This document shows positions 134 through 57,689 of a DNA stretch of 64,000 bases, in pieces. The stretch is from Eledone cirrhosa (lineage: Eukaryota): positions 225,308,001 through 225,372,000 of the forward strand of contig OZ024740.1 of assembly GCA_964016885.1 (NCBI GenBank). The letters run 5' to 3'. Numbering within the stretch: the stretch's first letter is position 1; every line of letters starts with the position of its first letter. The position numbers and the translations under genes are program-made. The notes beneath the pieces are model-generated. The model was not told the origin of the DNA. It did no database searches and saw nothing but the letters and a program-made list of their open reading frames with translations.

Positions 134-464
134 GAAAAGTCAGTGATGCATCTCAACTCAATTTATTATGTGTTACAATTTTTTCGCCGGCGGACAGCTC
201 GAGACGCAATCATTGTGTGGATCTATCTGATTCTGGACCCGCAGGTTCGACGCACACGTCTAATGATTTCGGAGCATATTCTCTCAATGTGAGAGCATAC
301 TCTCTCACTAGTGAAAGAATATGTTCCAAAATCCTTAGACGTGTCCATCGAACCTACGGGTCCAGAATCAAACAGATCCACACAATGATTGCATGTCGAG
401 CTGTCCGCCGGCAAAACAATTGTAGCACATAATAAATTGAGTTCAGGTGCATCACTGATTTTTC
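134..464. mobile_element. Foldback (palindromic) non-coding element with degenerate hammerhead-like motifs in both arms
   Basis: The arms are reverse complements around ~297 (e.g. TCAGTGATGCA / TGCATCACTGA, GCCGGCGGACAGCTCGA / TCGAGCTGTCCGCCGGC). It follows a (TA)n tract. The consensus of the two arms reads ATGCT-CCGAAA...GGC-GAAA-CAATTG-TA-GCA, resembling the motifs at 6530 and 55871. Confidence 0.75.
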
Positions 465-649
465 CTTTTCTATTCTAACATACTCTGCTCTGTAAGAGCA
501 TAGAGTGCTGAACCGGCATTCCGCCTATGGAAGCATCTTAGCTACCATCAGACACACACACACACACACACACACACACACACACACACACACACACACA
601 CACACACACACACACACACACACACATTATATATATATATATATATATA

Positions 650-1556
650 CTATAAAGTATGTCCATAGAATCGTTTGATAATATATATACACCATTTCCT
701 CTTGCTTATGCTAATTGGGAGAGGAAATGGTGTATATATATTATCAAATGATTCTATGGACATACTTTATAGTATATTGCTCTGATTATTTATTTTATTA
801 ATTCTTCATTGAGCCACATCGTGAATGGTTGCCAAAACACATATATATCTGTGACTTTGTTTAGTTTGTATATGTAAATGTTTATATTTAATAATCTCCC
901 ATAAGGTTGAGATGCAATTTGGGCAATATTGGGCTGCGCTTTCTAGCAACCAACCCATTCGCCGCAAGCAACCAATCACATTCTTTCTTACTTGACCACT
1001 GCCACGTCACGATTCTTAGCCATTTTGAATTTATGTTTGGCGGGTACCACTTTAGAAAATAATCTGTCCTAACGAGTTTGTCTCCTGGCGAGTTCGAAGC
1101 TATAGATTTTATCCTTAATAGAATATATCAAAATGCGAACGAAACCCAAGGGTAGGGACATAATCCTGGTATGTATATAAGCATTTCTAACTTTAATTTT
1201 ATACCTAATTGTGTATGGTTGACCGTATATTTAATCGATTTCCACGTGCTGTTGAAATGTTGGGTAATCACTCTATGGCGGTTGGCCGCGAAGAGATTGC
1301 TATCGTTTATTTATTTACTATTTCTTCATAGGTGCCTTTTAATCTTATAGCCTGGTCTAATTGATTTCTTGTGTGGTTAATTATGCTAATTGGGAGAGGA
1401 AATGGTGTATATATATATTATCAAATGATTCTATGGACATACTTTGTAGTATATTGCTCTGATTATTTAATTTATTAATTCTTCATTGAGCCACATCTTG
1501 AATGGTTGCCAAAACACATATATATCTGTGACTCTGTTAAGTTTATATATGTAAAT
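650..1556 (+). mobile_element. Retrozyme-like non-autonomous element: 675-bp monomer in partial tandem plus short 5' inverted segment
   Basis: TTATGCTAATTGGGAGAGG at 706 recurs at 1381 (period 675) and the repeat runs to ~1556. Segment 650-702 is an inverted copy of ~719-772. Flanked by (TA)n, contains an HHR, and is homologous to 53902-54627 (minus). Confidence 0.75.
1079..1160 (+). ncRNA. Type I hammerhead ribozyme with extended stem II (A6G change in core)
   Basis: TGTCTC-CTGGCGA-GTTCG...CGAAC-GAAA-CCC-AA-GGG-TA-GGGACA; stems I, II and III all pair, GUA cleavage triplet. Confidence 0.7.
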
Positions 1557-1572
1557 ATATATATATATATAT

Positions 1573-3330
1573 ATTAAAATAACAGATTAAAGTTTAAGCA
1601 AAGAATCGCTACTTTCACTCTAACGGGATCTTCTGAAACTAAAAAAGTCAATCTGCGAACGCAGAAGTAAATATTTCAAAAAACTTTGCAACCGAAGGAG
1701 GACAGCAAGACGTGACTTTGGTTCGTGGAAACGTTCCCTAGCAAAGAACGGAAAAAATCGAAGATAATACGTCATTATGTGGATCGGTGAGAACAATTAC
1801 ACGCAAAGACAAAACCACGTAAATGGTATAACTGAAGTTGTAGACTAAAATTCTATTTAGGAAACCGAATGATTCTCGGCTACAGAGTTAAGAATAAAGT
1901 AAATAAAATACAGAGGTAATTGAAATTAAATATATACATACACGCATCCATATACCTACGTACACAAGCATACGCGAAAACACTCGCCATGGGTATGCAA
2001 ATACAAGCACGTACACAAAAAAAAAACAAAAAAAAAACACGCACGCTTCGTACAGAACACACGCAACGCCTGTACCCGCACACATACGAACGTGTACACC
2101 AAATACACATAAAATATATATTAAAAAATATGTATATATGTGTGTGTGTGCGTGTATACATAATATATATAAATAAATATACACACATAAATACGCATAT
2201 AACAAGCGCGCACACATACCTACATGTAAATACACATATGTTCGCGGACATACGTCAACCGAAACAAAGTACACATATACACACACCCTGCAAACGTACC
2301 AACCCGCACACTCACACAGACGCAAAGCTCATGTATACACATAACCAAATGCACATGTACCTATATATATAATATATACGCCATAACATATACAAGCAAA
2401 TATACGTACGAGAATGTATACGTACCTTCACAAAACATACAGGTAATATATACTTACCTATACAAATAAGTAATGGTATAAACATAACAAATACATATTT
2501 AATTCATGAAGACGTAAAATATCCGCGTATAGTTCGTACTATCCGTTAGGGTATAATGTGGGGCTGTAATACAGGAACGTTTAGTGTAATTTATTTTTAC
2601 AAGCCGAAATTGCCTCAGATATTTTGTTTAAGATGTGGTCTTTTGCGTAGAGTATTTGCAGGGCCTCAGCGGCGCAGAGGTCACAGGGTCTTTTATTTCC
2701 GTTATACGATCTATCCTCAGCTAGGATCTCCCAGTGTAACTTATATTGGGTGTGGTTGTCTTTTAGACTCCAGATATAAGCTGAAAGTGACGTCATATTC
2801 CTTCTTAAAGGGTTAAGCAAAGAATGGGTATGCATGTAAAGACACTGCTTGAATCTATTGGAGGTTAACCCTATGTAGGCTCTACGGAACGTGGGTGTTT
2901 CTACCACATTCATTTTTTTCGTTCATTGCCAGTGAACGTCTCCATGAACCACCTATTAGGATATTAGTTTACGACTTCATTTATACCATAAACGTGGTTT
3001 TGTCTTTGCGTGTAATTGTTTTAACCGCACCAAATTATGATGTATTATCTTTGTTTTTTTTTCGTTCTTTGCCAGGGAACGTTTTCACGAACCAAAGTAT
3101 CGTCTTGCTATCTTCCTTCGGTTGCAACGTTTTTTGAAATATTTCTTCTGCGTTCACAGATTGACTTTCTTAGTTTCACAAGATCCCGTTAGGGTGAAAG
3201 CAGCGATTCTTTGCTTAAACTTTAATCTGTTATTTTAATAAATATTTGCTCTACGGTTCTTATATATCTGATATATATTTATCCTTATCGAGCCCTCTTT
3301 GGATTTTATTCTTCAAATTTATTATTATTA
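1573..3330 (-). mobile_element. 5'-truncated Penelope-like element (GIY-YIG remnant plus tail) with inverted terminal copy
   Basis: ORF 2581-2913 (minus) reads YIGLTSNRFK...LSAYIWSLKD...CDLCAAE...SACKNK. Segment 1573-1850 is an inverted copy of ~2960-3240. Bounded by TA-rich repeats. Confidence 0.8.
2581..2913 (-). pseudogene. PLE GIY-YIG endonuclease C-terminal fragment
   Basis: Clear similarity to the 31167-31826 protein (YVGSTSTEFK...LSGVLWQLRQ...CDLCAEE...SCCKHR). Confidence 0.85.
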
Positions 3331-55330: not shown

Positions 55331-55436
55331 GCTAACAATTGTTTCTCTGAACTTGTAGGTCTAGAGATCGCTACCTGCTTGTTTTCACGTCATTGGATCA
55401 CCAATACAAAGTTATAACCAGTCAATTCATCGGAGC
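55331..55436 (-). ncRNA. Hammerhead ribozyme, CCGATGA core, long stem II insert
   Basis: Inverted copy of 55871-55976 with a GUU triplet. Confidence 0.55.
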
Positions 55437-55870
55437 TTGTGAGAATGAAAGGAATATACAGGCATGGCTACTATATATAGTAGTAATGGCATTCAATCAG
55501 AACAATAACAACAATACTAACAATGCTAGCAATAAATTATTTGAAATAATCACAACATCAATCTAGGTGAGAAATATAGCATACCTACGATTTTAGCGTG
55601 TAAACCTAGTTGACATGAGGCAGATGTATAAAATTGACATGTAAAAGCTGTCATGGGGTGTATTACATGTCAATTTTATACATCTGCCTCATGTCAGCTA
55701 GGTTTACACGCTAAAATCGTAGATATACTATATTTCTCACCTAGATTGATGTTGTGATTATTTCAAATAATGTATTGCTAGCATTGTTAGTATTGTTGTT
55801 ATTGTTCTGATTGAATGCCATTACTACTATATATAGTAGCCATGCCTGTATATTCCTTTCATTCTCACAA

Positions 55871-55976
55871 GCTCCGATGAATTGACTGGTTACAACTTGG
55901 TATTGGTGATCGAATAACGTGAAAACAAGCGGGTAGCGATCTCTAGACCTACAAGTTCAGAGAAACAATTGTCAGC
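55871..55976 (+). ncRNA. Hammerhead ribozyme, CCGATGA core, long stem II insert
   Basis: GCT-CCGATGA-ATTGACT...AGTTCAGA-GAAA-CAATTG-TC-AGC. Confidence 0.6.
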
Positions 55977-57689
55977 AATGAGATTAAAAAGCTTTTTTGT
56001 ATAGCAAACCGTGTCACTCTTCTTTCCTGATTTATATATATATATATATATATATATATATATATATATATATATATATATATATACGTATGTATTATTT
56101 AGTAATATATATTTATATACACAAACATACATATACATCATCATCACCATCACCATTTGACGTCCATTTTTCATGCTACCATGAATCAGATGAATTGCCC
56201 CATTGTGAGACACACACACACATATATATATATGATAAACAGCTAACCCAAAATAACTTTGTGTTATCTGACAATAATTTTGATGTTTCGATCTCTTCTA
56301 TATAACACAAGAGTTTTAATGGAAACTTTCCTTCCATTCAATATGAATAGGCAAGGAAAGAAACAAACTGTGAAAATATAAATATATATATATATATTGA
56401 ACAGTATACAATATATAAGAAAATAAAATTAAAAAAAACAGTTCAAAAGATATACTAAAAACATATTAATGAAAAATACATAAATAAATAAGTGAATGAA
56501 TAACTAAATGTGTGAACAGACAGTAAACTTTTTTAATTTAGCATGAACGGTGCACATATAAATATTTACATTTATTTAAACGTGTAACCCAAATGTTTTA
56601 TTTCATTACTTATTTAAACATTAGAGAAATGATGAAAACATGAAAAATGCTTATTTTTTTAAGAGATTACTATGCTAATAAAATTATTATGTTACAGTTA
56701 GTCTAATCCTACACCAAGCTTGCTTAACTAATATAAAATTATGGCTTGAATAACCACAATAACTTTTGTTTCTAATTCTGTATCTTATATATTTTTTATT
56801 CCATGAGAAATATTGAATTTTATTATGGTAGTATAAATGAAATTTGAGATAAAATAAATGAAATATCTAACCTTCTAAAAAGTATACTTAACAGAGTTTC
56901 TGAACATCTCAAAATTATATTTTGACTGAAAACTAAAACAAACAATTGTGTTCATTGCAATTTAACATTGTTCTTGCAGGGAGTTATTCTTAACTTTCAT
57001 ATTATTATTATTTTCAAATACCCTTTTCCAATAGTATTGTTGACAATGAATTGATTTCATCTGTTTATTTCTTTTCATTAAACTGTAAAGGCCAATATCA
57101 CTCGATTCAAAGAATCTGTCTTTATATTCAAAATAATACATGTGTTATAATTTGAATCTAAAGCTGCCAGTATTGGCAAAGCTTACATCATCAACTTAAT
57201 CATTATTTATACTAATATTTCCCACTCGACATTATGACTTTCATTCAAACATTAGTATGTAGACCTCACTTATCTATTTATTATTTGATGTTATGGAAAT
57301 TTAGTAAATTACTCATCTGCTTATTTGATATGAGATATTTAAAATATAATGTTCCTGAAATAACTCCTTATTGCGTTATATATAAGGAAAAGAAAACAAA
57401 TGAAAAATTACAAAGGAATCTAAGAAACAAAACCAATGGAGGTTTAGGAGTGTAAGTTTAGAAAAGTTTATACAATTTACAGTCCAGTGTCTTTTACCCA
57501 TTCAATTTATAAATCCATTCACAGTGTTTATTTAGTAGATACGCTTCAAAAAACAATATCTCAAATGATTCTATTGTACAACGCATACACTGTTTATGTG
57601 TTTTTGTATGCAATTTAGCTCAGCAAAATAAATTATATTAGATATCATTATTAATCTCTTATCTTTTGAGATTCCAAATGTTTGTTCAT

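What the first reader, a model, noticed from the sequence alone, without database searches (positions are those of the whole stretch)
134..56035. A Penelope helper plus several families of hammerhead-bearing, non-coding satellite elements that target (TA)n
Seen: about 15 type I hammerhead motifs in 64 kb. Some sit in tails of Hydra-like PLEs (6530, 8970, 26492, 33205). Most sit in ORF-less elements that look mutually unrelated (monomers of 431, 534 and 660-675 bp; foldbacks at 134, 6780 and 55105; the 21555 element). These share the PLE insertion signature of partial tandem copy, inverted segment and, except the 431-bp one, (TA)n flanks. Known: PLEs carry minimal HHRs with palindromic stem III, Hydra-clade PLEs prefer (TA)n, and non-LTR retrozymes yield circular RNAs in some animals. 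Inference: a diverse set of retrozyme-like circRNA parasites copied in trans by the 29563-33398 type RT/GIY-YIG. I am not aware of a description of these particular families.
Basis: partly seen in the sequence, partly recalled or inferred. Interest (0 to 1): 0.82.

Follow-up and report, generated by a model that had tools for sequence, protein, structure and literature searches.

The report
Octopod Penelope stumps and retrozyme-like units
This stretch of a likely octopus-type genome holds many hammerhead self-cutting RNA motifs from Penelope-like jumping genes; several are likely broken-off gene tails, and three short non-coding units likely hitch-hike on those genes, a kind of parasite already proposed in other animals.

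Summary
The motifs are real: 14 type I hammerheads score above threshold, against 0.25 per shuffle. They belong to 10 insertions, because inverted and tandem arms count twice. Five coding remnants of Hydra-type Penelope-like elements (PLEs) lie in the window. In the four with a ribozyme, it sits 0.9-1.9 kb behind the stop codon, so any truncated copy under about 1 kb lacks an ORF. The foldbacks (134, 6780, 55105) and the 21468 and 21555 elements are therefore best read as PLE stumps; 21468 aligns to the 29571-33398 element's 3' end. Three units (431, 534, 660-677 nt) are more than stumps. The two 670-type copies are 75% identical across the whole unit, yet each has a 98.5% identical terminal repeat. 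The 534 unit is multi-copy. The 431 unit is strongly folded (z -9.6). They are likely non-autonomous PLE passengers, the retrozyme-PLE link already proposed in print (2020; 2026 preprint). Circular RNA and self-cleavage are untested. Only the 534 locus has two same-strand ribozymes. Nothing singles out 29571-33398 as the helper. The scan noted similar PLE stumps in other genomes before. Verdict: new members of a known kind.

The parts
130..551 (+). Head-to-head foldback (arms 130-295 and 302-468, 89% identical) with an 83-nt tail to 551; decayed hammerhead, predicted cleavage about 424; likely PLE stump
646..1546 (+). 670-family copy a: 58-nt inverted arm (646-703), then 1.24 units from 706; unit 677 nt; one hammerhead, core 1085, predicted cleavage 1154
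1567..3245 (-).
3383..6612 (+). Hydra-type remnant A, 5'-truncated; stop 4616; hammerhead core 6535 (C at position 4), predicted cleavage 6573
6779..7170 (.). Head-to-head foldback, arms 95% identical, outward-reading minimal hammerheads at 6932 (-) and 7017 (+), no tail; likely PLE stump
7182..9077 (+). Hydra-type remnant B, frameshifted endonuclease region; hammerhead core 8975 (G8 changed), predicted cleavage 9060
12757..13686 (.). 431-nt unit (13256-13686) inserted as two head-to-head arms of 1.06 and 1.10 units; hammerheads 13064 (-) and 13437 (+); about 10-bp direct repeat at the flanks; strongly folded RNA
20366..21185 (-). 534-nt unit, 1.42 units (21125-20366) plus a 60-nt inverted arm (21126-21185); two same-strand hammerheads 21107 and 20573 with U3 (U3-A8 in most reads)
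21199..21331 (.). Micro-insertion of a very abundant further family: two short head-to-head arms between TA runs; reads leaving 21243 carry a GAAA and palindrome like a hammerhead 3' half
21365..21535 (-). 170-nt stump with hammerhead 21468, related to the 3' end of element C
21556..21956 (-). 354-nt arm with hammerhead 21803 plus a short inverted arm (21909-21956); no unit junction seen; parent not in the window
26441..29530 (-). Inverted 5'-truncated arm of element C, 99.8% identical to the direct arm; hammerhead 26547
29571..33398 (+). Hydra-type element C: RT and endonuclease from ATG 29609 to stop 31826, frameshifted at a C run (11 C here, 15 G in the inverted arm); hammerhead 33211; 81-nt tail; (TA)n at 33398
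53902..54630 (-). 670-family copy b: 1.10 units, unit 660 nt, one hammerhead (core 54259), TA-rich flanks, no inverted arm
55105..56035 (.). Head-to-head foldback (arms 55272-55644 and 55663-56035, 97% identical) with a 167-nt tail to 55105; weak hammerheads 55433 (-) and 55874 (+); likely PLE stump
57506..58073 (-). Fifth, strongly decayed Hydra-type remnant; no ribozyme found

Best explanation
The window holds five coding remnants of Hydra-type Penelope-like retrotransposons and short non-coding elements with the same insertion anatomy; the short elements are likely a mix of 5'-truncated PLE tails and three non-autonomous unit-length elements likely copied in trans by Hydra-type enzymes. Shown in sequence: the ribozyme motifs, head-to-head arms, staggered 3' ends, terminal redundancy and TA-rich flanks. 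Inferred steps: (1) the GIY-YIG endonuclease cuts (TA)n or AT-rich DNA; (2) both DNA ends prime reverse transcription at fixed internal sites downstream of the ribozyme, which gives two arms whose 3' ends differ by a 58-167-nt tail; (3) early termination gives ORF-less stumps and foldbacks because the 3' UTRs are 1-2 kb long; (4) the 431-, 534- and 670-nt units have no ORF and are copied from a template that holds the end-to-start junction, so each insertion gets a fresh 1.06-1.42-unit copy. Whether that template is a linear tandem transcript (my estimate 0.5), a ribozyme-made circle (0.3) or a monomer copied with a template jump (0.2) is not shown.
For: Hydra motifs RWR, DKT, CxCX5C, CxxC and CxH in element C, and the cysteine motifs in A and B, match Craig 2021 section 11. 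Best named homologues are Argonauta proteins; Hydra-1_Obim is already listed from Octopus. Stop-to-ribozyme distance is 945-1919 nt in 4 of 4 window elements against a median of 121 and a maximum of 515 in 53 metagenome loci. 7 of 8 two-armed insertions tabulated have staggered 3' ends; D, not tabulated, has none. Tails mark two internal RT start sites in the anole PLE. Opposite-strand ribozyme pairs 100-700 bp apart were already ascribed to truncated PLEs. 670 family: colinear across the junction at 537 of 712 letters; terminal repeat 98.5% and 98.6% within a copy, 82.5-84.6% between copies. 534 unit: all bins covered by many variant contigs and reads; one diverged contig and 3 reads bridge the junction; common variants give U3-A8 (9 of 9 reads, 2 starts) and tighten stem III; U3-A8 is a known PLE variant. 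No tblastn hit to 70 Hydra-like proteins in any unit. Non-coding DNA between PLE terminal repeats is mobilised in trans in a rotifer.
Against: No genome was held, so parents and master copies were not seen. The 431 unit is one insertion here and its family status is untested. In the 534 unit the junction bin has the lowest depth (X1 341 against 1,392-95,040 in its other bins), and 356 reads leave the unit 16 nt behind the cleavage site, so a different element shares this ribozyme. No sequence link between the units and any coding element of the window. The 431 insertion sits in AT-rich, non-microsatellite DNA. The metagenome comparison is cut short by contig ends: 8 of 73 loci have 300 nt or more behind the stop and no ribozyme.
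Confidence: 0.72

Rival explanations
1. First reader's sharper version, compatible with the best explanation for the three units only: tandem masters are transcribed, cut by the ribozymes into monomers and circularised, and a Hydra RT runs once round the circle and stalls soon after, leaving copies of just over one unit.
For: All 5 long arms are 1.06-1.42 units. The 431 unit folds with z -9.6, -7.0 without its TA-rich end, against -1.2 to +1.5 in 19 background windows. Its ends pair so that the junction is a 4-nt hairpin loop, and the ribozyme region is predicted to fold close to the hammerhead shape. The 534 monomer has z -2.7. Coral, mussel and axolotl retrozymes make circles.
Against: Only 1 of 4 unit-length insertions could release a monomer by double cleavage. 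The 677 unit is not unusually folded (z -1.0). A unit is only recognised when a copy exceeds one length, so the 1.06-1.42 range is partly selection. In the anole PLE ribozyme mutants still insert, and no RNA-seq reads ended at the cleavage site. 8 of 9 Xenopus dimers did not cleave in vitro. The 11 differences between the two 431 arms show no compensatory change.
Confidence: 0.3
2. Everything short is debris of autonomous PLEs: single truncations or one-off tandems of two truncated tails, with no self-standing non-coding family.
For: Long 3' UTRs; 21468 matches element C; low depth at the 534 junction and reads that leave the unit.
Against: Two 670-type insertions 25% apart share the junction and have renewed their terminal repeat; diverged records bridge the 534 junction; the 431 unit is far more folded than the last 330 nt of coding elements A-D (z -1.0 to +1.3).
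Confidence: 0.15
3. The foldbacks are MITE-like DNA transposons and the units move by another route (the RTE-type LINE at 43833-46952, or DNA-level amplification).
For: Palindromic form and TA flanks also fit MITEs (recalled); a long RTE-type ORF with AP endonuclease and RT is in the window.
Against: Arms end at different points, which terminal inverted repeats do not; ribozymes read outward in each arm exactly as in the coding element C; no poly(A) or LINE-like tail at the 24 ends printed.
Confidence: 0.06

Closest known systems
Hydra clade of Penelope-like elements, including Hydra-1_Obim of Octopus bimaculoides (Craig et al. 2021, PMC8557442)
   Same: RT and endonuclease motifs, C-terminal endonuclease, 3' type I hammerhead with short palindromic stem III, often U.U at the base of stem II (21 of 53 control loci), (TA)n insertion, inverted 5'-truncated arm.
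   Different: Element C is 3.8 kb against under 3 kb for most; 3' UTRs are far longer; tails are 58-167 nt against the 30-40 described; by inspection no window ribozyme has the Hydra-1_Obim stems, so these look like other families.
Animal non-LTR retrozymes (Cervera and de la Pena 2020, PMC7229834; Li, Clavereau and Pollet 2026, bioRxiv 10.64898/2026.07.22.740005)
   Same: Non-coding, low-GC units with a type I hammerhead; dispersed monomers occur; proposed to be non-autonomous PLE derivatives moved by PLE enzymes.
   Different: Here copies are 1.06-1.42 units, mostly with one ribozyme per strand, and show PLE head-to-head arms and tails; arrays, expression and circles are not shown. In the parts I read, those papers argue from co-occurrence, shared features and terminal-repeat similarity, not from insertion anatomy.
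PLE insertion units with inverted terminal repeat and tail (Arkhipova et al. 2013, PMC3846280; Cervera and de la Pena 2014, PMC4209133; Frangieh et al. 2024, PMC11167929)
   Same: Head-to-head arms, optional tail, short target duplication, opposite-strand ribozyme pairs, trans-mobilised non-coding cargo, long spacers before the 3' repeat (Pen1_Av).
   Different: Different PLE clade; longer tails; microsatellite target.
Non-autonomous Chlamys elements such as MRC1 (Craig et al. 2021)
   Same: Short PLE passengers with partial-tandem repeats.
   Different: Those generally resemble an autonomous family at the 3' end, and canonical ribozymes were not found in most Chlamys; here no parent was found in the window.

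Membership tests
Hydra-clade PLE (element C) | RWK-type N-terminal motif and DKT in place of DKG | tested here: met
   RWR at residue 37 and DKT at 118; definition
Hydra-clade PLE (element C) | CxCX5C linker; CxxC and CxH around the conserved E and N of a C-terminal endonuclease | tested here: met
   also in A and B; Pfam GIY-YIG hit only for A, E 0.0024, below cut-off
Hydra-clade PLE (element C) | Hammerhead near the 3' end; insertion in (TA)n | tested here: met
Hydra-clade PLE (element C) | Generally under 3 kb | tested here: not met
   3.8 kb through a 1.57-kb 3' UTR; the paper gives this as usual, not as strict
Hydra-clade PLE (element C) | Groups with Hydra references in an RT tree | not tested
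Hydra-clade PLE (element C) | Intact single ORF, able to act as helper | tested here: inconclusive
   frameshift at a homopolymer whose length differs between arms that are 99.8% identical; may be real or a sequencing error
Type I hammerhead ribozyme | Core CUGANGA, GAAA, NUH and three stems, stem I open | tested here: met
   14 motifs, 9 with a perfect first core, 5 with one or two changes
Type I hammerhead ribozyme | Self-cleavage | not testable with these tools
   needs in vitro transcription
Non-LTR retrozyme (431, 534, 670 units) | No protein coding; GC under 45% | tested here: met
   longest stop-free frame 48-79 aa, GC 33-35%; no tblastn hit
Non-LTR retrozyme (431, 534, 670 units) | Two or more consecutive units with a complete ribozyme (criterion of Li et al.) | tested here: inconclusive
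   two same-strand ribozymes in 1 of 4 insertions (534); not met at the other three; arrays elsewhere could not be sought
Non-LTR retrozyme (431, 534, 670 units) | Highly self-paired monomer | tested here: inconclusive
   z -9.6 (431), -2.7 (534), -1.0 (677)
Non-LTR retrozyme (431, 534, 670 units) | Multi-copy family | tested here: inconclusive
   met for 670 (two copies) and 534; 431 not tested
Non-LTR retrozyme (431, 534, 670 units) | Expressed as monomeric circular RNA | not testable with these tools
   needs RNA data with circle enrichment
PLE insertion unit (foldbacks and stumps) | Inverted 5'-truncated arm and a tail on one arm | tested here: met
   134, 21555 and 55105 have both; 6780 has arms without tail; 21468 has neither

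The most novel reading that the evidence does not exclude
The 431-nt unit, and perhaps the 534- and 670-nt units, are viroid-like circular RNAs that parasitise Hydra PLEs, and their 1.06-1.42-unit genomic copies with PLE arms and tails are direct footprints of a telomerase-like RT running once round an RNA circle from fixed hairpin start sites. That would show by insertion anatomy which enzyme moves animal retrozymes and give a short natural template for working out PLE priming.
Probability: 0.28. Interest if true: 0.65.

Novelty: new member of a known kind. Interest (0 to 1): 0.38.

Why it matters
The mover of animal retrozymes is still inferred mainly from co-occurrence and terminal-repeat similarity. 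Non-coding ribozyme units that carry the PLE insertion footprint add anatomical support and offer compact templates for testing internal priming and the role of the ribozyme. The case also carries a warning: where PLE 3' UTRs are 1-2 kb long, ORF-less ribozyme elements are expected from plain truncation and should not be counted as satellites.

Tried and rejected
Rfam scan: 63 matches to E 1, mostly microsatellite-driven miRNA models, none at gathering score, no hammerhead family. A strict descriptor found 4 of the 14 motifs plus 2 chance hits; it misses the unpaired base at the foot of stem II. Whole genome: none held. A 23-nt 670-family pattern had 0 matches in metagenome contigs. All-against-all comparison of 16 element segments gave only the 670 pair beyond simple repeats. 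A likeness between the 5' UTR and the tail of element C scored 35 against a best shuffle of 36 of 300, so I do not rely on it. Differences between the 431 arms: 6 of 11 unpaired, 1 pair kept, 3 broken, 1 partner outside the alignment; uninformative. Priming by TA microhomology was considered, since several arm ends fall on TA-rich letters; it cannot be told from target sequence, and the anole PLE primes without homology. Repbase and Dfam could not be searched.

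
Full report
Observation. Rfam has no hammerhead match in the window, and a strict descriptor recovers only 4 of the motifs. A descriptor that tolerates core changes, bulges and an unpaired base at the foot of stem II gives 14 motifs scoring 9 or more, against 0.25 per shuffle in 12 local shuffles. 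I tuned it after seeing some motifs, so I ran it on 78 Hydra-like loci from metagenomes: it found a ribozyme behind the endonuclease stop in 53 of the 73 loci where the stop could be placed, and 79 sense against 2 antisense hits overall. The count of about 15 is right. The 14 belong to 10 insertions. The 55105 pair scores within the shuffle range, and the 134 motif is a decayed core seen by eye.

Coding elements. tblastn with 70 of the 120 homologues places Hydra-like remnants at 2548-2916 (D), 3383-4607 (A), 7182-7851 (B), 27962-31796 (C, two arms) and 57506-58073; a further weak hit at 34608-35120 is a more distant RT. C has RWR, DKT, CxCX5C, CxxC and CxH, the features given for the Hydra clade (PMC8557442 section 11). 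Its best named homologues are from Argonauta, from which I infer an octopod host. A Hydra family with a ribozyme and (TA)n preference is already listed for Octopus bimaculoides (supplement). A, B, C and D share 31-47% identity in the aligned parts, so several families are present. C is young (arms identical at 3080 of 3086 letters) but frameshifted at a C run of different length in the two arms; whether it is intact cannot be told.

Why ORF-less is not enough. In A, B, C and D the ribozyme lies 1919, 1106, 1385 and 945 nt behind the stop. In the 53 control loci the median is 121 and the maximum 515, although short contigs would hide long UTRs. Any copy truncated below about 1 kb has no ORF. 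The foldbacks at 134, 6780 and 55105 have arms of 166-373 nt, 89-97% identical, joined head to head with outward-reading ribozymes, the arrangement of C in miniature. Such opposite-strand pairs were ascribed to truncated PLEs in 2014 (PMC4209133). The 21468 stump aligns with the 3' end of C at 99 of 126 letters; 134 and 55105 weakly resemble the end of A. In 7 of the 8 two-armed insertions tabulated the arms end 58-167 nt apart; D, not in that table, has level ends. This is the PLE tail, which in the anole element marks two internal RT start sites (PMC11167929). I infer priming from both cut DNA ends. These elements could still come from non-autonomous parents; without the genome that stays open.

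Three units that are more than stumps. The copies at 706-1546 and 54630-53902 align over the whole unit, junction included, at 537 of 712 letters. Their terminal repeats are 98.5% and 98.6% identical within a copy and 82.5-84.6% between copies, and both start within about 5 nt of the same point. The repeat is therefore renewed along each lineage from a unit-length template. The 534 unit has two same-strand ribozymes. Laid on four DNA or unlabelled runs, all 30 bins of 20345-21960 are covered in X1 at summed depths of 341 to 805,611, against 8-16 for the single contigs listed; this shows many copies but is not a copy number. Common variants give the U3-A8 core (9 of 9 reads, 2 starts), known from Cercyon PLEs, restore or tighten stem III pairs, and restore a stem II pair in the 21468 ribozyme (993 of 1016 reads). 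Against a simple picture, the 534 junction bin is the thinnest, bridged by one diverged contig and 3 reads, and 356 reads leave the unit 16 nt behind the cleavage site. The 431 unit is inserted as arms of 1.10 and 1.06 units with a direct repeat of about 10 bp at the flanks; the tail of one arm is an exact copy of the unit's start (74 of 74 letters across the junction). It folds with z -9.6, or -7.0 without its TA-rich end, while 19 background windows give -1.2 to +1.5 and the ends of A-D give -1.0 to +1.3. Its junction falls in a hairpin loop. The 534 and 677 units give -2.7 and -1.0.

Mechanism. Shown: the anatomy above. Inferred: cutting of TA-rich DNA and internal priming by a Hydra-type enzyme acting in trans. 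16 of 24 arm ends abut TA-rich sequence against 2.1% of the window, with the caveat that I chose ends by eye. Not shown: which family helps. Downstream of the cleavage site only the 670 pair match among 66 comparisons. Not shown: circles. All five long arms stop at 1.06-1.42 units, as expected if an RT stalls after one round of a circle, but units are only visible above one length, only 1 of 4 insertions could release a monomer, the anole ribozyme is dispensable for insertion, and 8 of 9 Xenopus dimers did not cleave.

What is known. PLEs were proposed as movers of animal retrozymes in 2020 (PMC7229834; passages and sections 14 and 17 read), and a 2026 preprint argues that retrozymes are non-autonomous PLE derivatives (main text read, parts 1-3 of 5, supplements not seen). 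Trans-mobilised non-coding cargo and long spacers are described in a rotifer (PMC3846280, passages), and non-autonomous Chlamys elements in algae (PMC8557442, abstract, passages, section 11 and parts of the supplement). PMC11167929 was read in parts 1-2 of 4, PMC4209133 in part 1 of 4, PMC6765202 and PMC8967140 in passages. Three searches for octopus or cephalopod with hammerhead or Penelope terms listed 2, 7 and 5 papers; none of the listings or passages I read describes these units. The library is incomplete and Repbase and Dfam were out of reach, so the families may be catalogued there. Earlier notes of this scan reached stump readings for similar elements in other genomes; one pointed me to PMC3846280.

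Verdict. A sharp and mostly correct observation. New members of a known kind; the 431-nt unit is the one worth a bench test.

Noticed in passing
window 21199-21331: Micro-insertion (arms of about 45 and 90 nt between TA runs) of a family with the highest depth in the laid stretch; reads leaving 21243 carry what looks like a hammerhead 3' half, so a further ribozyme family is represented here without its ribozyme.
   Followed up: partly
   Followed up: partly
window 6535, 55433 and 55874: These ribozymes share C instead of U at core position 4 and the same stem III palindrome, so C4 may be a lineage trait and not decay.
   Followed up: no
window 29570-29600 and 33318-33356: The short 5' UTR of element C resembles the start of its 3' tail (30 of 31 aligned letters, four gaps), not beyond the best of 300 shuffles.
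   Followed up: partly
window 33942-34263 and 42909-43051: A further TA-flanked foldback (arms 97% identical) with a 74-76% identical relative at 42.9 kb; no hammerhead found.
   Followed up: partly
window 34377-35345 (-): Decayed RT fragment only weakly matched by Hydra proteins, by recalled motifs a Penelope-like element of another clade.
   Followed up: no
window 43833-46952 (-), 47255-47938: Long ORF with AP endonuclease, RT and PHD finger, RTE-type by recall, with older relatives at 18.5, 23-24.8, 36-37 and 38 kb; a 7 x 95-bp tandem array lies just upstream.
   Followed up: no
window 21566-21911: Contigs in runs X5 and X6, of two other organism labels, match this element with only 1-2 differences over 121-346 letters, while most X12 reads carry several variants.
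   Followed up: no
window 20366-21956: Four different ribozyme-family insertions lie side by side within 1.6 kb, separated by TA runs, which suggests repeated use of one microsatellite as target.
   Followed up: no
L016, L026, L040, L041, L049, L060, L067: In these control loci an endonuclease end and ribozyme lie upstream of the matched RT, which fits partial-tandem Hydra insertions.
   Followed up: no
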